DNA of 64,000 nucleotides, taken from Candidatus Fermentibacterota bacterium (lineage in GTDB: Bacteria; Fermentibacterota; Fermentibacteria; Fermentibacterales; JCC-6). Below are positions 40,073 through 64,000 of this stretch, piece by piece; the first letter of the stretch is position 1; every line of letters starts with the position of its first letter. The notes under the pieces were generated by a model. That model saw nothing but the letters and a program-made list of their open reading frames with translations. It did not search any database and was not told the DNA's origin. The position numbers and the translations under genes are program-made. Location: assembly GCA_963845085.1 (NCBI GenBank), contig CAWJQI010000001.1, positions 393,845-457,844 on the forward strand, written 5' to 3'.

Positions 40073-43211
<3,139 letters not shown>

Positions 43212-47333: not shown

Positions 47334-47443
47334 GGGCAAACCTCCACTGGTGCTGCCACCCTTCATAATACTTTCTACTACTTGTTCGCCAGCGATCTGA
47401 AACTGGGCTGCACAGGAAGAGTTACTGGGAATCTCTTCAAGAC

Positions 47444-48101
47444 TTATTCTCCACCCGTCACACCCTTATCCCTGAAATAAGCAGCCAGCCTTTGCCAAAG
47501 CCGTGAATGCACCTTCGGTCTGTTTCTTGTTATCTCGAACCATGCGGCATCAGGGTACCGGGCGTACAACGCCTGATCTTTCTCAGAAGATGGTGACCGG
47601 TCCGCTTCCCTGATTCGATTTTCTGGATGGTGAACGGTGAGAAGTCAAAAGACTAACCCGAACTCCCGAAGTGAAAGACCCAGGTCTTGTACGGAACTCC
47701 CTTGCCTCTTCTGCACCGAAGTTCTCCATTGCAGCCGGCCTCGAATACAAGGCAGGATGGTCCACGCCTGCCCGATGGTTGTCAGTAGTACGAATGGATC
47801 AATCTCATAAGGACTTATCCCGGAAGCAGCGCAGTACTCCGGATAGGCAGGGTTTTCCCTTGAAGGGATCCTGTCCTCTAAAGGAGGGAAAGAGCTGTTC
47901 CAAGAAGAAGCTCTTCCGGGCGAGGGGAAGTTCCGGTCCGACAGACACTGCGTCCGGTTGCCTGAGGTAAGCGTCTTCGTATGTAAACAGGAAACCTTTC
48001 TTCCCGTCAGGATCTGTGTGCTGTTCAAGCCTGCCGGCATAGTCACGCGTCCTTCTGCCTTCCGCAAAAACATCAACGCCGGGCATTTCACGGTCGCGCA
48101 T
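47444..48101 (-). CDS. HipA-N-terminal-like domain fused to a C-terminal XRE HTH, frameshifted
   Basis: AGRL...FLFTYEDAYL...VGPELPL...LFPSF.DRIPSRENP; GLSLREFGLV.DFSPFTIQKIESGK. Confidence 0.72.
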
Positions 48102-49007
48102 TATTCAGCTCCTCCGCTCTCTTCATGATAAGCCTCTGGATCGATTTTGCTCGTTCTTCTGAAAGGAATTTCCAGCCAGTAAGCGTCATGAACCTGTCCA
48201 CATCAACCCGTCGCTTGAACTCCTCTACCACGGAAGCAAAACCAAGCCTTCCGAATTCCACGACATAGTCATTCATCTCCGGATCGGGGTTTGCGTTGGT
48301 GGCAATCCTCCCCCTCGGGCTGTGATCAGCCCGAAGGAAAGCAGCGTCCTCAATCCCGAGGTAGGAAGGATTGTCATAGAAGGGTGCCAGAGTGTACTGC
48401 CCACCCTTTTCGATAAAGCCCAGGTTCCTGCCGTGTCTGTCGTGGTTGCCTATCAGAGAATCGAAGAGGCACAGTTTGATGAAGCGCTCTATTTCAAATA
48501 GCCTGCCGGTTTTCTCGCCAATCACGCCAATCAGCGTCTCGCAATCGAATGAACCGCCCACGATGAAGTGGTGGATGTGTTGCAGCGATTCTTTCCTTCC
48601 CGTCGAATGAAGTTCCTCACCGCCAGCGCTGACACGCCGTTGAACCGGATCAGAACGAAGTGAGGTATTCTGATCCCAAGAGAGTGCGCGATCTGGTTGC
48701 AGAGGTGCTCGGTGGCGGGAAGCTCGGGATACTCCTTCTCCTCAACCTTCAGAATGAAAGAAACGCCTTCCAGCCTGGCATCGTACTTCCTGAACTTGCC
48801 CTGAAGAAAGCTCGACACGACATCAGCGTCATTAACCGGCCGGCCGACTGAGCTCGTCCTGCGTCCGTTTGCTTACGTGCCAGGCCCGTGTAATTCGGCA
48901 AGCCCATCCACACCAAATGATTCCCGAAAACAGGCCGGATGCAGGCCGTAGTGTTCTTCCTGCCCTGCCTGCATCTCTTCACCGCAGTGAAAGCATCGCA
49001 TTCTCAT
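48088..49007 (-). CDS. HipA-C-domain kinase, frameshifted
   Basis: N-terminal CFHC...HPAC; SFLQGKFRK, FILK, ELPATEHLC, DSLIGNHDRHGRN, LAPFYD. Confidence 0.85.
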
Positions 49008-49203
49008 GGCTCCCTTCACAAAGGAATATTGAAGGAGTCAATACTGTTGTCAAGATAGCACAACAAATGCCTGTTGCATTATTGCTACACTAATGCGGGA
49101 AGAAACCTGGTTGCGTCTGCTTCAAGGGCCTGCTGAGAATGGCCGCTCAGTGATGTGTTTGCCTGATGGGGTGGCTTCCGGGTACGGTTCCCCCGCAGCC
49201 GCT

Positions 49204-49575
49204 CTACCCCTCCACCGGCCTGACCATCCCCACCTTCAAACCAAGCTTCCCGACTATGGGAAGGGGTTTCACCTTTCCACCGGATGCGTTCACGAGCCCA
49301 TTGATGAACAGGGTCAGAAGAGGGATGCCGATGAACAGGCAATAGATAATCATGAAGATCAGTCCGATCAGCGGGATGAAGGAGAGAATCCAGAGGAAAC
49401 CGGAAAGCATCCATGCCAGCATGATCACAAGGCTCTGCTGGGCGTGGTAGAGGACGTATTTGTTATCCTTGCTCGTAAGGTAGGCGACAAGGAAGCCCGG
49501 TAACCCGAAATAGGCCACCGTTGCCATGGCCTTGCCCTCCTCGATCTCCGCGGAAGTAATTCCAAAATCGTTCAT
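49204..49575 (-). CDS. DUF4870 family membrane protein
   Basis: MATVAYFG...YHAQQSL...GLVNASGGKVKPLPIVG. Confidence 0.8.
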   Translation of the reverse strand: MNDFGITSAEIEEGKAMATVAYFGLPGFLVAYLTSKDNKYVLYHAQQSLVIMLAWMLSGFLWILSFIPLIGLIFMIIYCLFIGIPLLTLFINGLVNASGGKVKPLPIVGKLGLKVGMVRPVEG

Positions 49576-49600
49576 AGGTTTCCTCCAGTGAGATATTCCT

Positions 49601-50068
49601 TCAGGGCGACCACTCGCTGAACCTGATCTCCGTTACCATTCCGGCTTCATCAAGCATCAGAGTCAGGCGGCACCCAGCTCCGGATTCGGTTACGACCTCG
49701 CGGACGATTGCCTGCCCGTCCCGCGAAACAAGTTCCGGCATCTGCCCGCAGGAAAGCACTAATCCATAGTCCAGGGCTTCTTCCTCTGAGACGGGATGGC
49801 CGGGAACGATCGAAGTGACAATTCCTTCAGTGCCGAAGCCCTGTCTTGTCAGAACAGCATCTGCGAACTGATATCGTTTGATGTAGTAATCCCATGGCTC
49901 GATGCCGAAAGCTTCGGAAGCCTCTCCCCAGGTCGGGATCAGAGCGTAGTTTTCCTGCGAGAAGTCGACGTTCCTGAATGAGGTTTCGTCAGCCAGTTCG
50001 ATGACATCCTGCGCAATGCAGGTGCCAGACAAGTGCAGCAGCAGTATACCAAGAAGCAGCCGTCTCAT
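49601..50068 (-). CDS. Secreted hypothetical protein
   Basis: MRRLLLGILLLHLSGTCIA signal peptide. Confidence 0.65.
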   Translation of the reverse strand: MRRLLLGILLLHLSGTCIAQDVIELADETSFRNVDFSQENYALIPTWGEASEAFGIEPWDYYIKRYQFADAVLTRQGFGTEGIVTSIVPGHPVSEEEALDYGLVLSCGQMPELVSRDGQAIVREVVTESGAGCRLTLMLDEAGMVTEIRFSEWSP

Positions 50069-50169
50069 GAGCCCCCCCATTGCCTTGCATTCCCGTCAAC
50101 CTGCCCGGATCGAGGCGCAGCATACGCGGGAACAGCCTCAAGGTCAACGAGCAGGGGTGCCGCCGGTTC

Positions 50170-51306
50170 TTACCTGAGGAGATAGAGTTTCTGAAAGCCC
50201 TCTTCAGGGTCCAGTTCCCACGCGAGTATCCCGTTGGGTGTGATCTCGGTAGCCCAGCTCCAGCTGTCCTTTGGAAAAACGGCCTGACGAAGCGGGTTCC
50301 CATCGAGGTCGTAGATGTCGAAAAAGATGTCGGTACGGGTTCCCCGCCTTACCCACAGGTTCCGGTCCGGTCCGACCCCGACATCGCTTATCATGTTCCT
50401 GTGCTGACAGGGATGAAAGTCAAAGCCCAGGGGCCTGCCACTGAGGCTCTGGTAAGAATAACTCGCAAAAATGCTCTCACGCTCTATCTCTTCACCGGTT
50501 TTCTCCACCGGAGCGATACTGCGCGTGATGTTGAGCACCTCCGCACCGGTTGAATCCCACCCCATGACCCGGTATTCAAACGGATCGATGGGAGCGAAGT
50601 AGACAACTCCTTCCCCATCTCCGCCGGTGATCGGCAACTCAAGGCATTCATATCGGAACCATGCGCTTGGATTGTCATTGTAGTCGGCTTCCGTCATCCT
50701 CAGGGAGTCCTTCCAGAGAAGGATCTCCCACTCCCTTTCACCCCAGGCATGCATGCCGATCGTATGGCGGATGAAGTCGTTGTTCTGATCACCGTCACAC
50801 CTGCACACAGAAAGCCATGAATTCGTAATGGGAGTGATGTGGTAGGGGGCGTTTTCTATCCACAGCCCTAATTCTTCCACGAATTCGAGTGAATCATCGA
50901 AGACGATGTAGCCCATCTTGTCAATCGAATTGATGCAGACCCGTCCATCCGGCATTATGAACAATCCAGTGACATGGTTTGATTCCCCTGGTCCGCTTCC
51001 TCGGCGGGAAACCTGCCTGATATAGTTGCCCTCAAGGTCGAAGACCTTAAGACAGGCGGCGATCTCATCAAGAACAAATATCCTTCCCTGATCGTCGATA
51101 CTCGCATCGATGATCGACCCGAAAATTGATGTTGAGTCGCCCAGCTCCCGACCAATTTCAAGGGCACATTCGAGGGTGTCAACAGGAAGCGCAGCCTGAT
51201 ATTCATTTGTTTCTACGGGATGGTTCCCTCCGCTGCATCCTGCCGCGAGCGCAATGCAGCAGGCGAGGACGGCTGAAATGCGTACCGTGGCAGTACCTGT
51301 TCCCAA
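50170..51306 (-). CDS. 6-bladed beta-propeller lipoprotein (unit 2)
   Basis: LAAGC lipobox; DDQGRIFVLDE...RRGSGPGE; start uncertain. Confidence 0.82.
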   Translation of the reverse strand: MGTGTATVRISAVLACCIALAAGCSGGNHPVETNEYQAALPVDTLECALEIGRELGDSTSIFGSIIDASIDDQGRIFVLDEIAACLKVFDLEGNYIRQVSRRGSGPGESNHVTGLFIMPDGRVCINSIDKMGYIVFDDSLEFVEELGLWIENAPYHITPITNSWLSVCRCDGDQNNDFIRHTIGMHAWGEREWEILLWKDSLRMTEADYNDNPSAWFRYECLELPITGGDGEGVVYFAPIDPFEYRVMGWDSTGAEVLNITRSIAPVEKTGEEIERESIFASYSYQSLSGRPLGFDFHPCQHRNMISDVGVGPDRNLWVRRGTRTDIFFDIYDLDGNPLRQAVFPKDSWSWATEITPNGILAWELDPEEGFQKLYLLR

Positions 51307-51347
51307 TCGGTTCCTGGGGTTTTCGCTGCTGCGCTCAGGGCGAACAA

Positions 51348-51527
51348 TCAATCCATCTCTCCCATCATGCACTGGGGAGACGGCATTGCCCCGCCGGGCC
51401 AGCACATGATGTAGTCTTCCCCACCGCTGATGCAATTGCTTTTTGGAATCACTCCATTCTTGCAGTCCTTGATACCTCTGCCTGTACTGCCGATTTCGAC
51501 AAGCTCAGGGTTGCTCCACTCCATCAT
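51348..51527 (-). CDS. CxxG-repeat peptide, ScmA-like RiPP precursor candidate (unit 2)
   Basis: MMEWSNPELVEIGSTGRGIKDCKNGVIPKSNCISGGEDYIMCWPGGAMPSPQCMMGEMD; GAAAGG RBS. Confidence 0.8.
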   Translation of the reverse strand: MMEWSNPELVEIGSTGRGIKDCKNGVIPKSNCISGGEDYIMCWPGGAMPSPQCMMGEMD

Positions 51528-51723
51528 CTTCACCTTTCGTTAAGAAGTTCCTGGATTTCTGGAATCATCAGCATTGCTGAAACAACCAAGGAATTGTTTA
51601 CTCGCCAATGTCTTGGAGAAACCAGCCGTATCAGACTGGCATTTGGCTTGGCGCCTCAACTTAACGGGCGCACACCCCGAACATCCGATGGAAAACCGAA
51701 CTGCTTCTTGCTGCATCTGATGG

Positions 51724-52278
51724 TCATCCACCTTCTTTCCCGGAGTTTCCCGGCATTCTAAAACCGATGGGATCGCATTTCTTCGGCTTCGGTGACTCAA
51801 TAAGGCTTTTAATGCCTTCCACCATGCCGACCAGAATGGAGTCGTGCTGTATGACCCGCTCTTCGAGTTTTTCAAGCCTGCGAGAGAGAACCTCATTGGA
51901 GAATACCAGTTCCCTCAACTTCACGAACACCCTAATTATGAACACACTCATCCTGGCGGCTTGTTCCGAGTTCAGAACATTTGCTGCCTGAAGGGCTCCG
52001 TGCTCGGTAAAAACCAGAGGGAGCTTTCTCCTTCCTCCCCAGCTCGATCTTGTTGTCGCATTTTGCGACATCAAGATCATGTGCTCTTCCCCTGTCAACT
52101 GAAACATGAAATCTTCAGGAAACTTGGAAATGTTTCTTCGTACCTGTTCATTCAACCGTCTCGTCTCCACACCGTACAGCTTGGCAAGATCAGAATCAGA
52201 AATTACACTGACGCCGCGGACATTGATGATGCTCAATGCAATCTTCCGCTCAACGAGGGCATCAGATTCTTCGGACAA
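51724..52278 (-). CDS. ORF6N-domain DNA-binding protein
   Basis: DSDLAKLYGVETRRLNEQVRRN..KFPEDFMFQLT...GGRRKLP.VFTEHG. Confidence 0.9.
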   Translation of the reverse strand: MSEESDALVERKIALSIINVRGVSVISDSDLAKLYGVETRRLNEQVRRNISKFPEDFMFQLTGEEHMILMSQNATTRSSWGGRRKLPLVFTEHGALQAANVLNSEQAARMSVFIIRVFVKLRELVFSNEVLSRRLEKLEERVIQHDSILVGMVEGIKSLIESPKPKKCDPIGFRMPGNSGKEGG

Positions 52279-52314
52279 TTCTGTTGAGGTTCCCTTCGTT
52301 CATCTTGATGACAA

Positions 52315-53487
52315 TCACCTGATCAGGAAAAGTTTCTGATAGCCCTCTTCAGGGTCCAGCTCCCACGCGAGTATCCCGTGAGGGGTGATCTCGGTAGCCC
52401 AGACCCAGCTGTCCTTCGGAAATACGGCCTGACGAAGCGGGTTGCCCTCGAGGTCGTAGATGTCGAAAAAGAGATCGGTGCGAGTTCCCCGCCTTACCCA
52501 CAGGTTCCGGTCCGGTCCGATCCCGACATCGCTGATCATGTTCTTATAGGGAGACGGATGGAACTCGAACATCAGGGGCCTCCCGCCCCTCAGTGGAAAG
52601 TAGTCGTTCACGTACGAGATCTCGTACTCGATCTCCGAGTCTGTCTTCAGAACGGGTGCAATGCTCCTGGTGAAGTTGAGGATCTCAGTGCCTGTCGAGT
52701 CCCAGCCGATCACCCTGTACTCAAAGGGGTCAACGGGTGCAAAAAACGTTCGCCCTGCTCCATCGCCTCCGGGAGCGTACAATTCGAACCAGCAGAAAAC
52801 ATAGAATTCCGATGGATCTCTGTTGAATTCGGCATCACTAATCTCCAGGGAGTCCTTCCAGAGAAGCTCGGTCATCTCGGCCTCGCCCCATCGGTAGATG
52901 CCCACAGTATGTCGCGTGACATCAGGAGTCGGGCTTCCATCATACCTGCAGGCAAGAATCCTGTCGTTCGAAATCGGGGTGACATGATAGGGCGGGTTTT
53001 CACACCAGAGCCGGACTTCCTCAAGCAGTTCGAGTGAATCGTCAAACATGACGTAACCCCATTTGTTTGCCTCTGTGACGGCAATCCTGCCATCGGGCAT
53101 GATGAAGAGTCCCTGGGGACACATAAGTTCACCCGGTCCGTCTCCGCGCCTGGACAGCTGCTGCAGGTAGTTTCCCTGCAGGTCGTACACTTTAATGCAG
53201 GCGGCTATCTCGTCCAGCACGAAAATGCGTCCCAGGTCGTCAATTCCGGCGGCGCGAATTGAGCCGAAGATCTCTGTGGAGTCGCCGATCTCCTGACCAA
53301 TCTCGATAACTGCTTGAAGTGTATCGATTTGAGCGGCGATGTCGTCATCCAGACCCTTCCCGGGATCATCGGAACCACAGCCTGAAAGCGAGCAGAAAGC
53401 CAGAAAGCCGTTCAGGATATGACTAAGGGTACGGGCTGCCCCGGGAAGGCAACATGCTTGGGTGACACAAATCTGTTTCAAGGCCAT
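52315..53487 (-). CDS. 6-bladed beta-propeller lipoprotein (unit 1)
   Basis: LSGC lipobox; DDLGRIFVLDE...RRGDGPGE; AGGAG before ATG 53487. Confidence 0.85.
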   Translation of the reverse strand: MALKQICVTQACCLPGAARTLSHILNGFLAFCSLSGCGSDDPGKGLDDDIAAQIDTLQAVIEIGQEIGDSTEIFGSIRAAGIDDLGRIFVLDEIAACIKVYDLQGNYLQQLSRRGDGPGELMCPQGLFIMPDGRIAVTEANKWGYVMFDDSLELLEEVRLWCENPPYHVTPISNDRILACRYDGSPTPDVTRHTVGIYRWGEAEMTELLWKDSLEISDAEFNRDPSEFYVFCWFELYAPGGDGAGRTFFAPVDPFEYRVIGWDSTGTEILNFTRSIAPVLKTDSEIEYEISYVNDYFPLRGGRPLMFEFHPSPYKNMISDVGIGPDRNLWVRRGTRTDLFFDIYDLEGNPLRQAVFPKDSWVWATEITPHGILAWELDPEEGYQKLFLIR

Positions 53488-53519
53488 ACTCCTGCGTTCT
53501 TTAGCAGGTTGTTTCCAGG

Positions 53520-53704
53520 CTACCAGATACTGCTTCCCGGAGTGCAGACCGGGAAGGCAATGGCTTCGCCACCCCAGCATTCCACATAGAAGAGTGTTCC
53601 TCCGCCGACGCAATCATTTCTTCGGAGCGTTTCCATTTACACATGTTTTCTTGAGCCCTATTCTCCCCATCCAGGGTGATCAGTTCAGGGTTGGTCCAAT
53701 CCAT
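53520..53704 (-). CDS. CxxG-repeat peptide, ScmA-like precursor candidate (unit 1), apparent indels
   Basis: MDWTNPELITLDGENR / CVNGNAPK / NDCVGGGTLFYVECWGGEAIAFPVCTPGSSIW* read across three frames; GAAAGGAG RBS. Confidence 0.7.
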
Positions 53705-53763
53705 GAAGACATCTCCTTTCCTTATTGCAGCAGCTTTAAATGCTTCCAAACGGGCGGCCAGCA

Positions 53764-54405
53764 TCAACAGCATGCTTCATAGTGATTCACTTTCAGTCTT
53801 CTGGTAGCGGGAAACAGGTTTGCCTTCTCAGCCTCTTCGCAAAACCAGAACGGTGCCCAGAGGCTCTTCGAACGGTAGTAATTCTGGGCTACGCAGCTTC
53901 CGTTGCATGCCTTTTTAACCAGGCACTCACTGCAGATGCCCTCGAGTTTTTCCGGGAGACCTTCGCGGAGCGCTTTCAACACTTCGGAATTCATCCAGAC
54001 ATCTTCCAAACTGTCGATGCTTGAATGCCCGAACACGAGTTCGGGAACCGACTCCCCGATGCCGCAGAGCGAGTACGAACCGTCGGCAAGAACGCCAAGG
54101 ATGTTCTTGATTCCGCACACTCCGCAACCGCCGCCCTTTTCGCCAAGCATTTTCCCAAGCGGTTGAAATGCCGCGGGCTGTGTGAAGTACATCGGCAAAT
54201 CCGTTGATGGTGCAATTTCGTGGAGAACCCGTCTGCCAAGTTCAATGAGTTCGGCAACCGACAGGGTTTCCATTGCCTGATGCATCCGGTCTCCCCGAGC
54301 CGTGGGCTGAACCGGATTGAACTTGACGGAACCTGCACCGACGCACTTCGCAAGCCTCACAACACCTTCAACCTGGTCCTTGTTCCTCCGCATGAGTGAC
54401 ATGGT
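53764..54405 (-). CDS. scmF: ScmF-like radical SAM/SPASM protein, C-terminal half only
   Basis: MSLMRRN...GAGSVKFNPVQPTARG...CGVCGIKNILGVLADGSYSLCGIG...CSECLVKKACNGSCVAQNYY...APFWFC; the SAM-binding CxxxCxxC is absent. Confidence 0.8.
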   Translation of the reverse strand, partial: TMSLMRRNKDQVEGVVRLAKCVGAGSVKFNPVQPTARGDRMHQAMETLSVAELIELGRRVLHEIAPSTDLPMYFTQPAAFQPLGKMLGEKGGGCGVCGIKNILGVLADGSYSLCGIGESVPELVFGHSSIDSLEDVWMNSEVLKALREGLPEKLEGICSECLVKKACNGSCVAQNYYRSKSLWAPFWFCEEAEKANLFPATRRLKVNHYEACC

Positions 54406-54818
54406 TCCTCGAGAGGGGCATGGCAACGATCAGGCAGAGAGGATCATGCCTCTTTCATAGAGAATGAGCATACAAGATTCGAGGAGAAAAGGAGGGTTTT
54501 CACATGCTGAACATTACTCATGAAGCCTTCCTGCTGAAAGCAGGCGAGGGTAAATCGGTTCGGCTTGGGGTGCCGCTGACACCGAGATCGAAGCTGGAGA
54601 GGTCGATGTCTGGAATGTGTGCCGGATCAGCGGTATTATACGGAGCAAGCGCATTAACACCTGTTACATAACCTGCGCAGTTCCCACTCACACTTGCCTC
54701 ATTCGTAGGCGTTATGCTCATCAGGTCGGTTTCGGTTGCCCCCGCAGAAAGGCAGTTTTTTTCATAAGATCGCACGCGATGTGACGCCCACCATCAGGTG
54801 TTTACTCTAAAGAGGACC

Positions 54819-55004
54819 TTACACTTCATCCTCCTGTGAAACCCGGACGATCGGGAACCCCTCTTCATCGATAATTACGCGAACAGTAATCGGCTTACAG
54901 CAAACTTGACAGTCTTCAATATAATCTTGCTTTCTTACAGAGGTATCGACGAGGAGCTCGATTGGCTCGCCGCAATAAGGACACAGGCTGTTGACCGGTT
55001 CCAT
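54819..55004 (-). CDS. CPXCG motif cysteine-rich protein
   Basis: CPYCGEPIELLVD.S...YIEDCQVCCKPI. Confidence 0.9.
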   Translation of the reverse strand: MEPVNSLCPYCGEPIELLVDTSVRKQDYIEDCQVCCKPITVRVIIDEEGFPIVRVSQEDEV

Positions 55005-55323
55005 ATCAAACACTTCTATTCACCACCCTGGAATTATTATACGTTGAAGGCGGCAAGTAAAGCAACGGCACCCTCGGGCCGATAACGGCAAGACAGTAGC
55101 ACCACTGTTTCACTGGACCAGCAACGTCCCGTGCCTTTGTTTAGACGACGTCCATGTTGCCATGTGTGCCCATTGTGAATTGTCAAGCTGCAAGACCTTA
55201 AGATGTTCCATTTTGGGATGTAACGTCCTGCACAATCCTGCACTACCCTGAAAATATGACACCATAATTCTGACAACCAATCTTATCTATGCTATAAAAG
55301 TTTATAAGCAACAGGGAGGACAA

Positions 55324-56639
55324 ATGCGAAAGATAAACAAGCTGTGTCGGGTGTTATTTGTGGTTTTAGCAGTGGCAACAATGGCCGGCTGCGGCAGCAG
55401 CAAAAACGACAGTAAGAGCTCTATCATCGTTACGGTCACAGATTATTCTACAACCGGCTTTCGGGTGCAGCCGTAGTACTGGGAGACAGCACCGGTGCCA
55501 TGAAGACCCACGGCACGACCGATGTGAATGGGGAGATCACTTTCATTGATCCGCCTGCCAACGCCACGGTGACCGCGGCCATCAGTTGCCTGCTCTCCGG
55601 ATCCACTCAAACAGTGTACGACATGGATGTAAAATACGATGTGAACGGGCCGGCTACTCTGTACCTTGGCGACTGCTTCCCTCCAGCCTCTCCGGATCAG
55701 GGAACAATAAAAATCAATGTATCAAACACTTTTAACCACGTTGCCAAAAACCGGATATTCATCAACAACTCTGAAGTATATTTGTGGCCCGAATCGCTCA
55801 TCACTCAGCAGACCGTTACTGTCAAGTCCTACTATCTCGGACCAGACGGAAAGCTTTCGATTATCGTGACAGGCCTGGATGCGACGGGCAAGTCCATTGC
55901 CTATGGCGCTCTCCCGGACCAGACGTTTGTAGACGGGATGACGGTCAATATCACCGTAGACCAGCCGATGAGCTTTGTTGAGTATCAAGTCACTAATATG
56001 CCTGCAGCCACAAAAAATCTATACCTCTCGATCTTTCATAGCAGCACAGGACCCGAATTCCTCTCCTGGAGCGACGGGTTTGCCCTGTCATCCGCGCCGA
56101 CCTCGACGACCGTACTGGTCGGTTATATCCCGGGACTCGGAGGGCAGTTCAGGTATGGAGTTGGTGCATACTTGGATCAGAACCAGAACGGGTTTACGGA
56201 CGCAATGCAGTATATATACTTTGGCGGATCAATCGTGCCTTCAAATCAGGTTTTTGACTTTAGCCAGGCGCTGCCGGTCCCGTCAAATCTCGCGGTAAGC
56301 GGAGCAAATACAGCGACACCGACTTTTTCATGGAGCGGCGTTCCCGGCGTCACTGATATAAATGTCATGACCGTGGTGCAGTTGCCCTCCAATCCTCATT
56401 TTTATTTCTGGCCCCAGCACATGTCGCCCACGAGGACCAGCATTACATTCCCGGAACTGCCCGACTCTCTCGCAGCCTGGAGACCTGCCGGAGTTGACAC
56501 TTTCAGCGTTTATGCGGCTGCATATTCAGAAGAAACATCAAGATCCAGTATGGCAATGTATTCCACGACGTTCAACTATGCACCGCTTTTGAGCAAACCA
56601 CAGCCCGACTTTCTATTGAAGCAGCGGCCGGGAAGGTAA
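55324..56639 (+). CDS. Beta-rich lipoprotein, frameshift near 55460
   Basis: GGAGG + MRKINKLCRVLFVVLAVATMAGC, continuing LSGAAVVLGD...GTTDVNG. Confidence 0.7.
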
Positions 56640-56659
56640 CGTTAATGGTATTCCAAAAT

Positions 56660-56696
56660 AGAGGGGAGACGCACTGCTTTTGCACCTCCCTCTTTT
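56660..56696 (+). terminator. Probable intrinsic terminator
   Basis: AGAGGGGAG...CTCCCTCT followed by TTT, between convergent genes. Confidence 0.55.
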
Positions 56697-56717
56697 AAGT
56701 TAGGGTGTGAGGTGAGT

Positions 56718-59583
56718 TTATGTCTCACTTGCTTCTCGCTTGCGCACAAGGAAATAGAACGCGGCGGTCATAAGAAGCAAAATCAGCATCAGGTATAACG
56801 AGGGCTCGGACATCTGGCGCTCCTCGCCGATGTCGAGTGACTTGTTCGCGGAAAGAACTTTTTCCTGCTTCCGCAGCAACGCCAGCCTTTGCGCCTCGTT
56901 CTCAAGCGCGAGGAATGACGTGACCGGGGTCAGAATGCGTGTCCTGAAACTGTTCTTGATCAAAGCAAGCCGCAGGGTCTCCGATTTTGAAGGATACAGT
57001 TCCATGTACCTGCTCATGCCCTCGAGCGCGAGTCCGTTCTCCCATGACGCATCCTTCACGTCGGCCGATGAAATGCCGGCGCCGGGTCTCAGCACGATGC
57101 TTGCCTGTTTGTCATCAGAAGAAAAGCAACGGGGTCCTTTTTGTCCGGCCATGCCAGGACGTAGTTTGCCGTACTGTCGATGTGCTTGCCATTCTGCTCA
57201 AACCGGGGCGCGCTCAGCGGCCGGCTGTTCAATCCGCCGAGGGGCCCAAGCTCATAATAAGAGTTTATTCTCGGGCAACAGCGATACAAAGCCGTTCATG
57301 CCTTCCGACAAAAATCGCGTTCCCGGGACGGTCGGACACCAGACGAAGACCGGATATGCGCGCGAGTGCTCCTGATAATTCCGGAACAATATGTTTTTCA
57401 TTGCCCGCTCCAGAAAAAAACCTCCCTGGCTCGGGAACTTCCTGACCTTGTCTTCCCATCCATCCTTCAGGTCGAACGTGGTCGTCTGAAAATTTGCAAG
57501 CGTGATTCTGGCGCCTTCAGCTGTCCGCGGGTTTGCGGCCCAGGAATTTCCGGATTCTCTTGATATAGCCCTCTTTCATTTTTTGAGTATCGGCTGAGCA
57601 ATCGAGAATGAAATGATAGTAGGGTTTTCGATTGATCTGCGGCAGCTTTGCCTTGACGTTTTCCGGAATATACACCACATTTCCGTCCAAAGCCGACACG
57701 GTCTCTTCCCGCTCGTGACCTCGAAGAGCTGCCGGATGACCGTCGATATCCAGCCGGACCGGGCCGCGATGCATCACTTCGAATCCCGTGTAACGGGTCT
57801 CTCCCGCTCGCGAAGGGAAAGACCCTGAGCATGATCTCCCCGCCGTCCGTGTAATAAAGGATTCCCGGGTCTCTTCCTTCCGACGTTATCTGCTGATAGA
57901 CCCACGTGGCGCTCTTCTTGTCGGTGAGAATGCCCCTTGACCCGCTCATTGCCGATCTTCAGGTAGTAGTCATCGATCCATGCGCCTGCAGGCAGCCGGA
58001 ACCGGGTTACATACTCTTGCTGCTGCCGGTTTGAGCTGTTACTGATCTCGAGGTGTACCCAGGTCCTGTTATATCCTCCGTTTTTCAAGAGGCCGCTTCA
58101 GTTTTGATCGAAACGATGGCCGGCCTCGGCCCTTCGGCGGGATTGTCTGCCGCTTTCCCGATACTCTCACATCCGATGTTCCCCAGAAGATCCTTTCAAG
58201 AACGTGCAGCTTCCTGCTCGAAAGCGTCATATTGTCCAGGACAAGCCAATGATAGAACGGAGTGATATAGGGTTTCCGCTCGGACATGAATGGCGGTTTC
58301 TGCTTGTTTGCCTTTGATGCTGTCCAGCGTCCGCCGCGCCGCGGAGACGATTGATGCGCGCGGAGATTAACGGAAAAATCGGGATTGTAAACAAAATCCA
58401 GCATCCTGTTCAGCATGATCCTGTGCATGCATGAATTTCCCGGTAATCCCCAGGGGAAGAACCAGGAACCCGATGAGAAAGACCGCTATCACGGATCTCC
58501 GGCCGTATTGCTCTTTCAGGAACCGGTAATCAGTCGTCAGGGAATGGGTATGAACAACCATTACCAGGAGCGGCGTCAGCATGAGAAACCCCAGTCCGAC
58601 CGCGATGATTGCCGGAATGGCCAGCGGCAAAAAAGGGAAGCAGTGCGAGGAAAAAATAGAAGACGAAGGAATAGGTGATGCTTTTCGCCAGAAAGAGGGC
58701 GAAGCCTGAGGCGCGGGTTTTGAAAACCAGGCAGCGAAAGGAGGACGCCGTTCAGTGCAGCAGTAAGGTAATACCACGGGCTGCTCATGATCGCCGAGAA
58801 AATCGAAGAGGCCCCTCATCCCTGCTTCCCGCGGACTAGGGCTCCGTTATACACGCCGAAACAGACCAGCGGCAGGACAACCAGGAAAAAGAGCTTGTAA
58901 AGATAGGCCCGGCGGTATTCTGCAAGGGGCTTTTTCAATAAGAGGAGATACACCAGGCGAACGGCGTAGAACAGGAAAACGATGGTGCTGATCGAGGACC
59001 AGGATGAGCAGTACGTGCATCATGAATTTTTTATCGAGAAAACTCAGGTACGTCCTGCCGAATAGGCTCTTGAGCATCGGGATGCCGACATTCACGCATA
59101 AATACCAGAAAGCCGGGATAATGAGCGCGCCGATGATCGTGCCCTTCAACGGGTGGTCTTTCTCTTCAGGGCGTGAACCCCAGGACCAGCAGGACCAGGC
59201 CATGAGCGAATGCCGGCATGAGAAACGTAAACGCATACAGGAAAAGATCTCCCCTTTCGAACATCCAGCGCGGTACGTTGAAAGGAATTACGGTAGAGTC
59301 ATTCATCAGGAAAACATACAGAAGCGGCAGGTACGTCAGAAAAATCAATGCGCCGAATAGGGTATCGATCGGTTTTCGTTTAATCCAGTGCGACAATGCC
59401 GTACACCGTGCTGGCGCACAGCAGCAGGAGAAGCAGGGAGCCGTACAGTTTCCAGCTGATGATGGATTCTTTCGACATCAGGGTCCTGATGACGAGATAG
59501 GAACTTAAATAAAGAAACAGCAGCACTGATTGCGGGAGGGTAATGGTCAGGAATATCCAGTATGGCTTGGCTAACTCTCTCAT
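56718..59583 (-). CDS. MSEP-CTERM sorting-domain protein, many frameshifts
   Basis: C-terminus MSEPSLYLMLILLLMTAAFYFLVRKR; polytopic N-terminus; VIT-like EYVTRFRLP...YYLKIG...KKSATWVYQQI...RDPGIL. Confidence 0.85.
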
Positions 59584-60233
59584 TCTGTTTTCCTTTCGCG
59601 CTCGTGGATCGTCAAATTCTGCCAACATGAGTTCGCAACGGCTTTTTGGGAGTAATGCGGCCTGGGCTTTAATTCTCTGCGCCCCTGTTTTCGATCGCCC
59701 ATGAAGTGAAACGTAGTACAGGACCAGGAAAGAAAAGTAAACGAAGATGCCTTGTGCTTCATGGACAGTATCGGTACTGGCGAATCTAAAATGACTTGCT
59801 GCATGCAGAAGAGCGATGCCGACTACGATCCGGAAGGAATTGACCATGACCGTGACGGTATATGCTGCGAGAATAAGGACTGCAAACGCAGGCAGTTTGT
59901 GCCGCGTAAAACGCGGAACAAAGGAAAATATCGTCATGCACAGCGCAAGAACGAGATAATTCACTCCTGCGCAGCTTGTTCCGACCACAACCGCGTTTTC
60001 GAAATTGATATAGCCTTTTGCGGGATCAAAAAAGAATTGCAGGCCGGTAAAGGCCTTGACAAGATACATGGTAGGTGAGAGTATCCAGCCCAGGTCCGAG
60101 GCATTGGAAACGATCAGGAAAAGCTTGAGCCAGACAGCGATGGAAAGCGTAATAAGGAAGAGAAACGCATCCGCAAAGTCAGTCTTCGCAGATAAGCGAT
60201 AGGAGTGGAGAGACTGGCTTTATAATTCTGCAT
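59580..60233 (-). CDS. xrtK: Exosortase K, frameshifted at both ends
   Basis: DLGWILSP, SCAGVNY (Cys), NSFRI (Arg), HEAQG (His); adjacent to the MSEP-CTERM gene. Confidence 0.85.
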
Positions 60234-60381
60234 TTGCTGTCCCCCCCTTTTTTCCTCAGACTTTAGAATTATGCACAACTCTTCCTTTCTGTCCAGTGTT
60301 TTTCCCCTTTCAAATTATCGATGAATGCCAGGCAGCAGGCCCTGGTCCAAAGAGGTCTTCCGAAGAAGTACTAACAAGTCG

Positions 60382-60418
60382 AAAAAATAAAAGAGGCCCC
60401 GGCGTTTCGGGGGCCTCT
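60382..60418 (-). terminator. Intrinsic terminator
   Basis: AGAGGCCCC...GGGGCCTCT stem with a minus-strand U tract, after the stop at 60437. Confidence 0.8.
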
Positions 60419-60436
60419 GATTTGCTGCAATCTGAT

Positions 60437-60913
60437 TTACGCAACCTTTGCTTCGCGCAAATCTTCCGGACGCACCTCGAAGTAATCCCGATGGCCGAAC
60501 GCTTTGCGGTAATCGATCAACCAGACCTTTTTCGGGACTATTCTGACGAACCGGGAATCGGGATTCGGCGGCAGCGTTTTTGCGTACGGGAACTTTTCCA
60601 GAAAACGCGGCACGATATTCGCGACTTTTTCCGCTGACATGATCTCCGCTTCTCCTTCGATCTGCAGGCCGGTGATTTTGGACCAGTCCGACTCGTCCTC
60701 GTCAATCGTCAGCGATACCTTGGGATTTTTGGCTATATTCTTGACCTTCTCGGTCTTCGCACTCGTCGCGAAGTAAAGACTCAGGCCGTCGTTGAAATAC
60801 GCTATGGTGCTTGCGTGCGGCTGCTGCTGGTTCTCGGCGCTGATCGTCGCGAGGTTCCCGTAGAGATGTCGGGATAAATAGGAAATGGCTTCTTTTTTCT
60901 TAGCATCGTCCAT
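60437..60913 (-). CDS. Pyridoxamine 5'-phosphate oxidase family (split-barrel) protein
   Basis: LATIS...PHAS...LYFATS...KVKNIAKNPKVSLTID...GLQIEGEA. Confidence 0.9.
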   Translation of the reverse strand: MDDAKKKEAISYLSRHLYGNLATISAENQQQPHASTIAYFNDGLSLYFATSAKTEKVKNIAKNPKVSLTIDEDESDWSKITGLQIEGEAEIMSAEKVANIVPRFLEKFPYAKTLPPNPDSRFVRIVPKKVWLIDYRKAFGHRDYFEVRPEDLREAKVA

Positions 60914-61041
60914 GGCACATTGCCTCCTTCCTCTTTAATGGTAGCGCCAATTGAAGACAGGCTGCATCAGCAGTCCCGACCGTTCATACTGAGGTCTCAT
61001 CCATTAAGGCTAAAAACGAGCGGCTTTTCCTGCTCTTTAAT

Positions 61042-61077
61042 AAAAAAGAAAGGGACAGGATCTCTCCTGCCCCTTTT
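61042..61077. terminator. Probable terminator hairpin
   Basis: A tract + AAGGGACAGGA-TCTC-TCCTGCCCCTT + T tract. Confidence 0.55.
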
Positions 61078-61143
61078 CGAAAGCGGATGAGTGATGCTTT
61101 CCTATTTTACTGAAAAAGCGGCGTACTGCGAGGTGCCGTCGGT

Positions 61144-61437
61144 TCAATCCTCGCGCGAACGCCCTCGTTTACCGGTCTCATTGAGGAACGGACGCAACAG
61201 GAAATAGTAAAGCGCGGGAAAGAGGAGAAAAACCAGAAACAGGGAATCTAAAATAATCCCGACAAGGGGATCATTCAATTTCAGGTACTGAAGGACGGTC
61301 GTCATGATCACCTCCACCACCAAAATCAATATGATCGCGGCGAGCAGAAGTCGAAGAGGCAATGGGCAGCTTTTTTTGCTGTCTGTCAATAGCCTGTTTG
61401 ACCATTGATCTGCCAGCCTTGATATACGACGCTTCAT
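61144..61437 (-). CDS. Small two-TM membrane protein
   Basis: Two hydrophobic helices, LDS..L....FPALYYFLLRP. Confidence 0.55.
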   Translation of the reverse strand: MKRRISRLADQWSNRLLTDSKKSCPLPLRLLLAAIILILVVEVIMTTVLQYLKLNDPLVGIILDSLFLVFLLFPALYYFLLRPFLNETGKRGRSRED

Positions 61438-61837
61438 TCTGAAATACCTTTTTGCAGTCCTGTTGGGAACGCTTTTCGTTATTTCCTTTTCCTTTGCATT
61501 CGTTAATATATCATTACTATTTGTATTTTCATTCGGCTTTTGTTGCTGATTTTATCGGCTTTTTGTAAAGCAAGTAAATTGGGGAGGTTAAAGGCGAGCA
61601 GCGCAGACTCGGAGAAGGGTTAACGATATTGACTTACCCCCTGCGCCGGGCTGCAAGCAAAAGCAAGGAAGTAAGAAGGCAGAAGTGATGAGGCAGACAA
61701 GGACCGACGAGTTTCGACGAGAAACGACGAGATGCGACAAGTAAGGAATTTTTACTTTTTAATTTTTACTTCTTAATTGTTCTCCTCGGAATTTCGGGGA
61801 TGCAAGGGGGTAAAGGCGAGCACAGACTAGGAAGGGT

Positions 61838-62650
61838 CTACGTAGCTCGTGATGGTCCCGTCGCCTCTCCGTCGCTTCTCCGTCGCTTCTCGTCGCTTCT
61901 CGTCGCCTCTTGTCGCCTCCCCGTCGCTTCTCGTCGGGTTTCTCGCTCCCCATCTGCCTCACGGCCGAACAGCCTGGTGAAGAGCTCAGGCACTTCGGAT
62001 TCAAACGCGAGCCGTTTGCGGCTGAAGGGATGCTTGAAGGAAATGGACCTGGCATGGAGCGCCATGCGCGGAAGCCTGTCGTCCCCTGTTCCGTACTTCT
62101 CGTCTCCGGCAACAGGGTGGCCCAGGCCCGCAAGGTGCACCCGTATCTGGTTCTTTCTGCCGGTCAGAAGAGTGACTTCCAGCAAAGAGAGCGCTCTTTT
62201 CTCCCGGATGACCCTATAGACCGTCTGAGCCAGCTTTCCCTTTTCGCTGTCCCGCGTTGCGTAGACGAAATAGTCCTCGTCTTCAGCGAGGTAGCTCGTG
62301 ATGGTCCCGTTTTTCTTTTCCAGGACACCATGGACGATCGCAAGATATCTTTTCTCGTTTTCTTTCCAGTGAGCCTGCAGCCGTTCCTTTGCCTCTTCGC
62401 TCTTTGCAAACAGGAGCACGCCTGAAGTGTCCCTGTCCAGCCGGTGGACCACCCACAGACGTTTTCGGCATCTGCCGCAGCCTTTTCTGATGTACTCGGT
62501 CAGGATGGAATGCGCCGTGCGCAAATTTTCATGTTCCGTAGCCACGGTCAAAAGGCCCGAGGGCTTGTCAACGACCAGGATGTCCTTGTCCTCGTACAGG
62601 ACCTCGAGTCCGTGGGGCAGACGCCTGCTGTTCGAACCTCGTCTTCGCAT
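61838..62650 (-). CDS. RluA family pseudouridine synthase with repeat-derived C-terminal tail
   Basis: VVDKPSGLLT, VHRLDRDTSG, TGRKNQIRVH, GDEKYG, LHA. Confidence 0.93.
   Translation of the reverse strand: MRRRGSNSRRLPHGLEVLYEDKDILVVDKPSGLLTVATEHENLRTAHSILTEYIRKGCGRCRKRLWVVHRLDRDTSGVLLFAKSEEAKERLQAHWKENEKRYLAIVHGVLEKKNGTITSYLAEDEDYFVYATRDSEKGKLAQTVYRVIREKRALSLLEVTLLTGRKNQIRVHLAGLGHPVAGDEKYGTGDDRLPRMALHARSISFKHPFSRKRLAFESEVPELFTRLFGREADGERETRREATGRRQEATRSDEKRRRSDGEATGPSRAT
61858..61945. repeat. Degenerate tandem decamer CGTCGCTTCT (further copies at 62857-62896, inverted at 61706-61741)
   Basis: Directly visible tandem units. Confidence 0.85.
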
Positions 62651-62995
62651 ATGCCATACTACCATATTTCCAGGAAAAAGGTGACGTGCCTCGACCAGAC
62701 GGGCCATTGCGGTGCGATTACCAGAGAGAAGACGAACAGTCAAACATTACTGATGGCATCAGGCAAATTGCAGGGAAGGTGGTTGAATTTTGAGCTAAAA
62801 AACAGAGGAAGGCTTTGCTGGGCAGCGCGGCGATGGCCATACATGAATCAAGATTGCGTCGCTTCTCGTCGCTTCTCGTCGCCTCTCCGTCGCGTCACGG
62901 TTGGGTGACCCTAAGTGTCCTCCGTGCCTCTGTGGTTAAATCTGACTTTTATGGTTTTGAGATTTATAATTGGAATTTCCTCTGAAGGAGGCATT

Positions 62996-63166
62996 ATGCC
63001 TGACATTCAAAGCATGATCGATAAAGAAGTTGAAGTAATTGCCAACGGAACGCGGTATACCGGAATATTGATCGAGGTTTCCGACGCTGAAGTTCATCTC
63101 AAAGGACCTATGCAGTGGATATCCCTGCCATCATCGTCCGTCAGCCAGATCAATCTCAAGCATTGA
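62996..63166 (+). CDS. Small Sm/LSm-like-fold protein
   Basis: GGAGG + MPDIQSMIDKEVEVIANGTRYTGILIEV...VHLK. Confidence 0.6.
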   Translation: MPDIQSMIDKEVEVIANGTRYTGILIEVSDAEVHLKGPMQWISLPSSSVSQINLKH

Positions 63167-63352
63167 TCCGTGTTTGAAGCATGTTTGTGCGCTATAGCAG
63201 TCCTGCCCTTTTGTGGTATTCCTGCTATAATCGATTTAACTGAATGAAGATAACGCGAGTAGCGTAATTATGCTGATCAGTATTCGTCCGGGCAAACGCC
63301 TGCTGAGTGATCAAATTAGTTTGTCCTTGCACTGTGCAAGTGGGAGGCAGCC

Positions 63353-63838
63353 ATGAAAAAAATAATATCCCTGTTTGTCTTTCTCTTTATACTGTTTACC
63401 GCAGCCGGGCTTCCTGCCGCTCCGGCAGCGAAGTCCTTACAGGGGCTAAAGCAGGTCAAGATCGTCTGCGACATGAACGTGGGGGATCCGAAGCTGCTGA
63501 TCACGCGGATGGAACTGCTGGACCGGACCTACCGCCAGATAGCGGGGTCGGGTGCGAAAACGACCGTGGTCGTCGCCTTCCGGGGCAAGGCCAGCCTTTT
63601 TATCACCAAAGGTGACGGCTATGTCGGCGCCGAAGGGAAGGACGCAAAGCCGAAAGTGAGGTCATGGATCGAACAGTTCAAAAAGAACGGCTTTATCCTT
63701 GAACAGTGCGCTCTAGCAGCAGAGATGTTGGATATCGACGTGAAGGATATACTGCCTGAAGTGGACGTCGTGGAAAACGGTTATGTGTCCCTTGTCGGAT
63801 ACCAGCAACAGGGATATGCATTCCTTCCAATGGATTGA
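63353..63838 (+). CDS. DsrE family protein with signal peptide
   Basis: VVAFRGKA...LEQCALA...VVENGYVSLVGYQQQGYAFLP. Confidence 0.82.
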   Translation: MKKIISLFVFLFILFTAAGLPAAPAAKSLQGLKQVKIVCDMNVGDPKLLITRMELLDRTYRQIAGSGAKTTVVVAFRGKASLFITKGDGYVGAEGKDAKPKVRSWIEQFKKNGFILEQCALAAEMLDIDVKDILPEVDVVENGYVSLVGYQQQGYAFLPMD

Positions 63839-64000
63839 TCCGGAAAGCCTCTTAGGCAACCCTGATATGATTGACATAGCGGCGCTGTTGCGGGCGAGAA
63901 AAAACTTTTCTCGCCCGCGTTCAACTCATTTATAGCGTACGGCAGGAGGGATGCCGGAAACCCTTTCCTGCATCCAAGGCTAAAGCGCCCGCAAGAATGT

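What the first reader, a model, noticed from the sequence alone, without database searches (positions are those of the whole stretch)
50170..54405. Tandem [CxxG-repeat peptide + beta-propeller lipoprotein] units behind a radical SAM/SPASM gene: candidate diversified peptide/cognate-receptor system
Seen, in minus-strand order: ScmF-like SPASM gene, peptide 1, propeller 1, ORF6N, peptide 2, propeller 2. The peptides share a leader M[DE]W[TS]NPEL[IV]x[LI] and a core C-x-NG-x2-PK-x2-C-x2-GG-x5-7-CW-x-G-x-A-x3-P-x-C-x2-G (four CxxG) but differ elsewhere. Each is followed within ~45 nt by a paralogous lipoprotein. Known: SynChlorMet cassettes pair ScmE/ScmF rSAM-SPASM enzymes with a Cys-rich ScmA peptide, and their product is uncharacterised. 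Inference: one maturase modifies several precursors, each duplicated together with its own surface propeller acting as immunity protein, receptor or display partner. I do not know this pairing from any described system.
Basis: partly seen in the sequence, partly recalled or inferred. Interest (0 to 1): 0.85.

Follow-up and report, generated by a model that had tools for sequence, protein, structure and literature searches.

The report
Radical-SAM peptide with propeller lipoprotein partner
Uncultured anaerobic bacteria carry a mobile gene cassette in which a small cysteine-repeat peptide, probably cross-linked by radical-SAM enzymes, is always followed by its own membrane-anchored propeller protein that may bind it; the pairing is real and undescribed, but the binding is untested and this copy lacks most of its enzymes.

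Summary
Mostly confirmed. The window (a Fermentibacterota genome) holds peptide–propeller ×2 behind a scmF fragment. Peptide 1 is frameshifted as assembled but intact in independent data; scmF is only its C-terminal half and no scmD/E is adjacent. Four relatives hold the intact form scmD-scmE-scmF-peptide-propeller. All 8 peptide genes with context are followed by a PF17170/NHL propeller lipoprotein, against 0 of 75 other scmF loci and 0 of 13 resident paralogous cassettes, which carry ScmC/S26 peptidase instead. The peptides are divergent ScmA precursors (WxxPxL leader, four CxxG). Seven of the eight propellers fall in one mobile clade whose predicted ligand face has diversified, and peptide and propeller identities correlate. 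Against a strict cognate pair: 11 of 20 clade members have no peptide, orphans are equally diversified, and linkage alone explains co-divergence; co-folding was unavailable. Best reading: exported thioether RiPP plus binding/immunity lipoprotein (0.4). The scan noted ScmA cassettes and Cys-peptide/propeller pairs separately on other DNA; I found neither in print. New variant of a known kind.

The parts
53764..54402 (-). C-terminal half of scmF (end of rSAM barrel plus SPASM domain); N-terminal CxxxCxxC half missing
   Evidence: TIGR04251 positions 152-352/353, 309 bits; PF13186; SPASM cysteines aligned and kept; homology ends at 54402
53520..53704 (-). Precursor peptide 1 (WxxPxL leader, four CxxG modules); two one-base insertions in T-runs at 53615 and 53645 as assembled, most likely long-read errors
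   Evidence: Three-frame translation; relatives' contigs lack the extra bases; intact homologue P0158
52315..53481 (-). Propeller lipoprotein 1, 388 aa, lipobox Cys35, PF17170 (DUF5128), NHL-type six-bladed fold
   Evidence: fold inferred from the model of paralogue 2
51724..52278 (-). ORF6N-domain gene between the two units; not present at this place in any of the five related cassettes, so probably a passenger
   Evidence: PF10543; absent from the related loci listed
51348..51527 (-). Precursor peptide 2, 59 aa, intact, WxxPxL leader and four CxxG modules
   Evidence: (P0004)
50170..51306 (-). Propeller lipoprotein 2, 378 aa from TTG 51306 (an alternative TTG at 51351 overlaps the peptide stop), lipobox Cys24, PF17170
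   Evidence: AlphaFold2 model pLDDT 90.8; best structural match Brat NHL domain Z 23.8, rmsd 3.0, 261 aligned
54403..64000 (.). Foreign-looking block that replaces scmD-scmE-scmF(N): chimeric contig end or an insertion; not part of the cassette
   Evidence: only one 93-nt match in 69 other genomes of the phylum; tetranucleotide profile nearest to Deltaproteobacteria/Syntrophales loci; the syntenic continuation in same-genus G062 matches contig C4's start instead
49204..49575 (-). DUF4870 gene, downstream synteny marker shared with C4:1-1622 and G062:C9

Best explanation
A horizontally moving variant of the SynChlorMet RiPP cassette: scmD-scmE-scmF-[peptide-propeller]n. Steps: (1) ScmD, a stand-alone RRE, binds the WxxPxL leader (inferred from the known [Y/W]xxPxL-RRE interaction); (2) ScmE and ScmF, two rSAM/SPASM enzymes, put thioether cross-links on the four CxxG modules, most simply one small ring per module (inferred by analogy; no chemistry known for any Scm cassette); (3) the peptide is exported by an ABC exporter encoded nearby or elsewhere, and the leader is removed in trans because the cassette lacks its own S26 peptidase (inferred); (4) the lipid-anchored NHL propeller behind each peptide binds the mature product on its top face outside the cytoplasm and neutralises it, as self-protection against a narrow-spectrum antagonistic peptide; propellers left without a peptide are retained or collected immunity genes (inferred). 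Shown: gene coupling, family identities, fold, diversification pattern. In this assembly the copy cannot mature its peptides by itself because scmD, scmE and half of scmF are missing.
For: Peptide followed directly by propeller in 8 of 8 peptide genes with context, 6 genomes, 4 genera. All 4 over-cut-off ScmF in 70 genomes have scmD-E-F-peptide-propeller. Controls: 0 of 75 other scmF loci (63 with at least 1.5 kb downstream) and 0 of 13 inspected resident paralogous cassettes have such a propeller. Cores differ from canonical ScmA: always four CxxG (21 of 21) against 3-19 Cys, large hydrophobic residues 0.25 vs 0.13, small S/G/A/T 0.36 vs 0.53, as expected of a recognition surface. Fold is the NHL ligand-binding propeller. 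Top-face loops: mean pairwise identity 0.47 in the mobile clade vs 0.68 in the conserved core-gene clade, while strands are equal (0.60 vs 0.61); 0 of 317 circular shifts as low; segment test p 0.002. Core-peptide identity correlates with propeller identity, Mantel rho 0.67, p 0.002, 7 pairs. Propellers stay intact where the maturase has decayed: G057:C25 (fused scmD/E remnants, peptide, propeller) and G057:C76 (scmD stump directly before the propeller). Unrelated rSAM-peptide clusters recruit the same protein family: 4 of 12 propeller genes in this genome lie within 1 kb of a SPASM rSAM, chance about 0.02 each. Precedents from papers: sequential 4-residue sactionine rings and kin-restricted activity in streptosactin (PMC9389541, passages); two rSAM enzymes acting as one complex in thuricin CD (PMC12093266, abstract).
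Against: The coupling is one-way: in the 20-row mobile clade only 7 rows follow a peptide, 11 have neither peptide nor scm remnant (one of them has only about 116 nt upstream, one is the second propeller behind a peptide-linked one), and no peptide remnant was found near 18 orphan loci. Orphans are as diversified on the top face (0.469) as peptide-linked ones (0.475), which also fits relaxed constraint. Correlated divergence is expected from physical linkage alone, and the pair left out of the test (G010, P0001) uses a propeller of another subfamily although its peptide is the closest to peptide 2. The family is large in this phylum (11-34 PF17170 hits per genome). No dedicated exporter or peptidase is a constant part of the cassette. 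No activity, expression or binding data. Top/bottom assignment comes from DSSP topology, not from coordinates.
Confidence: 0.4

Rival explanations
1. Same cassette and direct binding, but the peptide is a signal, kin tag or scavenged/metal-binding product and the propeller is its receptor, uptake or display partner rather than an immunity protein; orphan propellers eavesdrop.
For: All coupling, fold and diversification results fit equally. The mobile clade derives from a conserved single-copy core-gene propeller with a conserved top face, which points to an ancestral housekeeping ligand-binding role. Bacteroidota NVEALA peptides are secreted and paired with propellers without any rSAM.
Against: No sensor kinase, regulator, TonB receptor or importer is a constant neighbour in the six loci; the propeller has no cytoplasmic part.
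Confidence: 0.22
2. Hitch-hiking: the propeller is a member of an expanded, mobile surface-lipoprotein family that was captured once behind a Scm cassette and travels with it, without touching the peptide.
For: 11 of 20 clade members are orphans in varied mobile contexts; 53 of 70 genomes hold close homologues while 6 hold the peptide; 7 of 8 linked propellers could stem from one capture; orphans are equally diversified.
Against: The pair was duplicated as a unit in two genomes, and G010 couples the peptide to two different propeller subfamilies, so the position was filled at least twice; unrelated rSAM-peptide clusters also end in a propeller, above chance in this genome (p about 7e-5) and more weakly in five relatives (3 of 106 after removing Scm loci and weak cases, p 0.016); the same layout recurs with NVEALA peptides in another phylum (6 of 7).
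Confidence: 0.2
3. The propeller is a late maturation factor (folding chaperone, or an enzyme such as a PAL-like lyase) that functionally replaces the ScmC kinase-like and S26 peptidase genes missing from this variant.
For: It stands where ScmC and S26 stand in canonical cassettes; PAL is among the structural matches (Z 18.6, rmsd 3.5, 258 aligned).
Against: No invariant His or Arg among the 46 invariant columns, which are mostly structural Gly/Pro/Asp/Trp (PAL's His/Tyr/Arg catalytic set is recalled); the face that would hold an active site is the most variable part; one copy per peptide is not needed for a shared enzyme.
Confidence: 0.1
4. On the state of this copy only: the scmF truncation is an assembly chimera and the living strain has the complete cassette (alternative: a real insertion or deletion left a dead maturase).
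For: Break lies 9.6 kb from the contig end; the block beyond is foreign; contig C4 begins with a 93-98% identical, internally deleted version of the same slot and continues in synteny with G062; SPASM cysteines are all kept; indel errors nearby.
Against: The fragment has a long end branch, 0.56 against a median of 0.21; true decay of this cassette is seen twice in G057; scmD/E/F(N) are nowhere in the assembly. No contig crossed the junction.
Confidence: 0.5

Closest known systems
SynChlorMet cassette (NCBIfam TIGR04248 ScmD, TIGR04249 ScmC, TIGR04250 ScmE, TIGR04251 ScmF, TIGR04252 ScmA); database-defined, no paper found
   Same: ScmD, ScmE, ScmF over cut-off in the intact relatives; same gene order; precursor with aromatic-xxPxL leader and CxxG modules 9-11 apart; the peptide profile retrieves canonical ScmA peptides; three of the ScmF nest beside Chlorobiaceae ScmF (SH-aLRT 95, quick tree)
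   Different: No ScmC, S26 peptidase or nucleotidyltransferase in the cassette; a propeller lipoprotein after each precursor (0 of 75 other scmF loci); W rather than Y leader (canonical 63 Y, 5 W of 68); fixed four modules with hydrophobic loops; peptides score below the ScmA cut-off
NVEALA (PF14055) peptide + PF15869/PF17170 propeller neighbourhoods of Bacteroidota (database-level; no paper found)
   Same: Small Cys-containing peptide gene directly followed by a six-bladed propeller lipoprotein, also in tandem peptide-propeller-peptide-propeller form: 6 of 7 NVEALA genes in the one genome of 101 that had them
   Different: NVEALA peptides have a hydrophobic signal-like N-terminus and no rSAM in the loci seen; here the peptide has an RRE-type leader and two rSAM/SPASM enzymes
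Type 2 sactipeptides, e.g. streptosactin (PMC9389541, passages) and two-rSAM thuricin CD (PMC12093266, abstract)
   Same: rSAM/SPASM maturases with Cys-rich precursors; short periodic Cys motifs that would suit un-nested rings; two maturases
   Different: No cross-link has been shown here; Gram-negative-type host phylum; lipoprotein partner not part of those passages
LPP and paeninodin-like lasso clusters (PMC13381572; abstract, section 6 and passages)
   Same: Discrete RRE reading YxxP or WxxP leaders; canonical Scm cassettes share their accessory set (SpI/S26 peptidase, HprK-like kinase, NTP transferase, ABC). W-leader and Y-leader Scm precursors coexist in this genome, as Y and W systems do there
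   Different: No rSAM in LPP; W/Y discrimination by ScmD is untested and ScmD sequences show no obvious W-specific residue
NHL-repeat propellers (Brat 1q7f; BF0058 4raa; PAL 3fw0)
   Same: Six-bladed NHL fold, Z 23.8 / 18.7 / 18.6
   Different: 9-13% identity; helical insertions on the top face; ligand unknown

Membership tests
SynChlorMet cassette | ScmF over TIGR04251 cut-off | tested here: met
   Four relatives 549-580 bits, cut-off 400. The window's own fragment is below cut-off (309) because half is missing
SynChlorMet cassette | ScmE over TIGR04250 cut-off next to scmF | tested here: met
   581 and 598 bits in the 2 relatives scanned; present by BLAST in the other two; absent from the window's genome
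SynChlorMet cassette | ScmD (PqqD/RRE) over TIGR04248 cut-off | tested here: met
   122.7 and 100.3 bits, cut-off 100, in 2 relatives; absent from the window's genome apart from an 18-bit paralogue
SynChlorMet cassette | ScmC (TIGR04249) in the cassette | tested here: not met
   No ORF between peptide and propeller and none ScmC-like in the five related loci; canonical loci give 258-315 bits
ScmA precursor (TIGR04252) | Score over the curated cut-off of 35 bits | tested here: not met
   2 of 16 peptide sequences scanned hit, at 21.5 and 22.5 bits; peptide 2 does not hit. The model is insensitive: 0 of 9 canonical-position peptides reached cut-off either
ScmA precursor (TIGR04252) | [Y/W]xxPxL leader plus periodic CxxG core, encoded after scmF | tested here: met
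   profile search of 1.84 billion proteins runs from W-type into Y-type peptides
PF17170 DUF5128 six-bladed propeller | Pfam score over gathering threshold and six-bladed fold | tested here: met
   30.2 and 34.8 bits, cut-off 22.9; model and fold searches
Bacterial lipoprotein | Signal peptide with lipobox Cys | tested here: met
   Lipobox read in both ORFs; Cys nearly invariant in 29 homologues; lipidation itself not testable
Sactipeptide/ranthipeptide | Cys-to-carbon thioether cross-links installed by the rSAM | not testable with these tools
   needs co-expression and MS
Cognate toxin-immunity or ligand-receptor pair | Direct, partner-specific binding | not tested
PAL-like NHL enzyme | Invariant metal-binding His and catalytic Arg (recalled) | tested here: not met
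   No invariant His or Arg in the 29-row alignment
NVEALA (PF14055) | Pfam match of the peptide | tested here: not met
   Peptide 2 has no Pfam hit at E 0.1

The most novel reading that the evidence does not exclude
PF17170-type NHL propeller lipoproteins are a general, undescribed class of receptors/immunity proteins for small Cys-cross-linked peptides across several phyla, and in Fermentibacterota they form a polymorphic peptide-antidote system: each WxxPxL/four-CxxG RiPP carries its cognate propeller, the pair duplicates and swaps as a unit, and cells hoard orphan propellers against neighbours' peptides. This would give a first function to DUF5128 and to a SynChlorMet product.
Probability: 0.3. 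Interest if true: 0.85.

Novelty: new variant of a known kind. Interest (0 to 1): 0.6.

Why it matters
SynChlorMet products and DUF5128 propellers both lack a function in the papers searched. This minimal five-gene variant ties one to the other and supplies about 20 natural peptide variants, 8 with a verified neighbouring propeller, so one heterologous experiment can give the ScmE/F chemistry and a cognate-versus-swapped binding matrix. If binding holds, it names a ligand class for a large lipoprotein family that also sits beside Cys peptides in Bacteroidota, and points to peptide-based kin conflict or signalling in an uncultured anaerobic phylum.

Tried and rejected
Metagenome scans with peptide 2 (229 candidate stretches, none confirmed) and with the peptide alignment (2 loci, both leader-only chance matches inside other ORFs) added no loci. 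A recalled accession for ScmA was wrong; the right model is TIGR04252. G049:C169 (E 0.003, two stops) was dropped as spurious after inspection, as were the E above 0.02 hits outside the window. No RNA holder was listed, which says nothing on expression; lack of contig cover beyond 54394 is not proof of a chimera. Promoter/terminator scan was uninformative (7 promoter-like sites vs 3.2 expected, none before the peptides). ESM Atlas gave only unnamed clusters at 0.89. The ScmF tree is the quick tree (careful search unfinished), 16 of 79 loci were left out for lack of my anchor motif, and it does not place the window fragment. The RluA search for the foreign block gave few organism names (Nitrospirota, Betaproteobacteria). 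ScmD alignment showed no W-specific residue. Paper searches without a relevant hit: 'SynChlorMet' 0; '6-bladed beta-propeller'+'radical SAM'+'precursor peptide' 0; 'NVEALA' 0; TIGR04250-2/ScmE/ScmF only unrelated acronyms in the 20 listed of 279; DUF5128/PF17170/BF3164 one phylogeny paper; Fermentibacterota+RiPP two passing mentions; beta-propeller+lipoprotein+RiPP+SPASM+immunity 0; nothing on such pairs (15 of 28 listed). PMC10288494 has no 'propeller' or 'Scm' in its main text; its supplements were not searched and could list these clusters. Subscription papers are outside the library.

Full report
Observation. The minus strand carries, in order, a scmF-like ORF, peptide 1, propeller 1, an ORF6N gene, peptide 2 and propeller 2. 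Peptide 2 (51527-51348) is intact. Peptide 1 (53704-53520) is spread over three frames as assembled. The two breaks lie in T-runs; contigs of close relatives lack the extra base at 53615 in 3 of 3 runs and at 53645 in both runs that cover it (2 studies, low depth), and record P0158 holds the peptide in one frame. The propellers start 38 and 41 nt after the peptide stops, carry lipoboxes, are 59% identical and hit PF17170 over cut-off. The scmF ORF matches only positions 152-352 of TIGR04251; homology ends at 54402 and neither its first half nor an over-cut-off ScmE or ScmD is in the assembly. Source names of homologues place the genome in Fermentibacterota.

Intact form in relatives. The peptide profile finds 6 of 70 genomes of the phylum (one ninth match with two stops was dropped). 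All 4 ScmF over cut-off among these 70 genomes lie in scmD-scmE-scmF-peptide-propeller; ScmD and ScmE pass their cut-offs in the two loci scanned. G010 has peptide-propeller-peptide-propeller-propeller across two contigs that share a 14-nt end and continue one reading frame. G057 holds two decayed copies: fused scmD/scmE remnants before peptide and propeller, and a scmD stump directly before a propeller. In all, 8 of 8 peptide genes with DNA in hand are followed by a propeller. Database searches add family members to about 21; four share source and contig length with a propeller record, which is suggestive only.

Controls. Of 45 sub-cut-off scmF paralogues in the phylum I inspected 13 with 9-16 kb of context: none has a propeller near it, and most show a Y-leader CxxG peptide, a ScmC-like and an S26-like gene; a fourteenth (G045:C41) has a propeller 6.8 kb upstream, before another rSAM cluster. 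GTDB-wide, 186 scmF relatives were confirmed and the best 79 loci kept: my propeller profile hits only the 4 Fermentibacterota loci, 0 of 75 others (63 have at least 1.5 kb downstream). Because that profile is phylum-centred I also scanned 27 of 76 downstream ORFs with Pfam: no PF17170 or PF15869, one RCC1-repeat protein. Canonical loci hold ScmC, S26 (35 of 75 by BLAST), NTP_transf_5 and ABC genes.

What the peptides are. Their profile retrieves canonical ScmA peptides next to other scmF genes and grades into them in the 1.84-billion-protein search. TIGR04252 itself is hit by 2 of 16 sequences, below cut-off, but it also misses canonical-position peptides. Several precursors per cassette is ordinary (12 of 75 loci). 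The propeller-linked subfamily is distinct: W leader (canonical 63 Y, 5 W), exactly four CxxG in 21 of 21, more hydrophobic and charged loops. [Y/W]xxPxL is the known RRE-binding motif and W versus Y can separate two pathways in one cell (PMC13381572; abstract, section 6 and passages read); this genome also has a Y-leader ScmA-like ORF beside its resident divergent cassette. Three of the linked ScmF group with Chlorobiaceae ScmF, apart from the resident paralogues (quick tree), consistent with transfer of a canonical cassette followed by loss of ScmC/S26 and gain of the propeller (inference).

What the propellers are. The model of propeller 2 (pLDDT 90.8) is an NHL six-bladed propeller, best match Brat NHL (Z 23.8, rmsd 3.0, 261 aligned), then BF0058 and PAL. 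Invariant columns are structural, with no His or Arg. Close homologues occur in 53 of 70 genomes. In a 49-row tree, 7 of the 8 peptide-linked propellers lie in one 20-row clade (SH-aLRT 100) that branches from a conserved core-gene clade; it also holds the scmD-stump copy, one copy from an unrelated rSAM-peptide cluster, and 11 copies with no peptide. Using DSSP topology to assign faces, top-face loops are less conserved in 16 rows of this clade (0.47) than in 8 core rows (0.68), while strands are equal (0.60, 0.61) and bottom loops go the other way (0.63, 0.58); 0 of 317 shifts reach the contrast. The 30 positions nearest the channel alone were not significantly more variable than the bottom loops (p 0.095). 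Orphans show the same diversification as linked copies. Core-peptide and propeller identities correlate (rho 0.67, p 0.002, 7 verified pairs with P0158 standing in for peptide 1; rho 0.53 with the 4 inferred pairs); G010's first pair was left out because its propeller is split and of another subfamily, and it counts against strict co-descent. Linkage alone predicts such a correlation.

Wider pattern. In this genome 4 of 12 propeller genes lie within 1 kb of a SPASM rSAM, two of the others with unrelated small Cys peptides between (binomial p about 7e-5). In five relatives chosen for having the cassette or being same-genus, 8 of 109 PF17170 hits lie within 2.5 kb downstream of a SPASM hit (my reading; expected 0.5); three are the Scm loci, two are directly coupled other clusters, one has an ABC pair between, two look unrelated. 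In Bacteroidota, 1 of 101 sampled genomes had NVEALA genes, and 6 of its 7 are followed by a six-bladed propeller, once in tandem units. So peptide-then-propeller is a recurrent layout; its combination with ScmA/ScmDEF is what is new here. Earlier notes of this scan saw ScmA cassettes and Cys-peptide/propeller pairs separately; they are leads, not support.

State of this copy. The 9.6 kb beyond 54402 has one 93-nt match in 69 relatives and a word profile nearest Syntrophales/Deltaproteobacteria loci, whereas the cassette block is nearest Fermentibacterota loci. Contig C4 starts with an internally deleted, 93-98% identical version of the same slot and continues in synteny with same-genus G062, where the slot holds one intact orphan propeller, sister to propeller 1. 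Chimeric end and real decay are about equally likely; either way this is a variable slot.

Mechanism and verdict. Most likely: ScmD reads the leader, ScmE/F cross-link the CxxG modules (analogy with streptosactin's un-nested 4-residue rings, PMC9389541 passages; two-enzyme complexes, PMC12093266 abstract; Cys-Gly sactionines in StsA, PMC10288494 passages), the product is exported, and the neighbouring lipoprotein binds it, as immunity (0.4) or receptor/display (0.22); hitch-hiking (0.2) and a maturation role (0.1) remain. Shown: coupling, identities, fold, diversification. Inferred: chemistry, export, binding, activity. PMC13692751 (abstract only) is a distant precedent for rSAM thioethers and does not bear on the propeller. 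Novelty: new variant of a known kind. Interest 0.6.

Noticed in passing
G000:C5:861557-858779 (-): Unrelated rSAM/SPASM gene, two tandem 47- and 56-aa Cys-ladder peptides, then a propeller lipoprotein.
   Followed up: partly
G000:C5:239411-237219 (-) and L204:2819-5958: rSAM, a C-terminally conserved four-Cys peptide, then propeller(s); frameshifted in G000, intact in G062, where the second propeller belongs to the same mobile clade as the window's.
   Followed up: partly
G000:C4:732410-734906 (+): Propeller, a short ORF with a single Cys near its end, then a rSAM/SPASM gene.
   Followed up: no
G000:C5:573161-576860 (+): Resident divergent Scm-like cassette (ScmD/E/F-like, kinase-like, S26-like) with a Y-leader CxxG ORF; scmF-like gene frameshifted as assembled. 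Similar cassettes score in 42 of 70 genomes.
   Followed up: partly
G000:C4:1-1622: Near-identical but internally deleted second version of window 49192-52372; contig ends C1/C4 look like alternative alleles of one slot.
   Followed up: partly
window 46209-47098 (-): A third, divergent propeller gene, split by a frameshift, 3 kb downstream.
   Followed up: no
window 39239-48982: Island with an Mrr-like endonuclease, a heavily frameshifted type I HsdR, an HTH/IrrE-like gene split in pieces and a HipA-like gene (the Mrr and HsdR labels are my reading of the translations).
   Followed up: no
window 54403-64000: Foreign block with CPXCG protein, exosortase and a frameshifted long membrane protein, RluA; possible contaminant of the bin.
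   Followed up: partly
L108-L119, G000:C4:310666-311772: Conserved single-copy propeller clade with a conserved top face, in several genomes between an EamA-like transporter and an ArfB-like gene (labels read from translations); likely ancestor of the mobile clade.
   Followed up: partly
L070:7806-10930 and L202:1832-6132: AlbA-like RRE-rSAM with an ABC-2 pair, followed by a propeller in G049 and lying beside the Scm cassette in G036.
   Followed up: no
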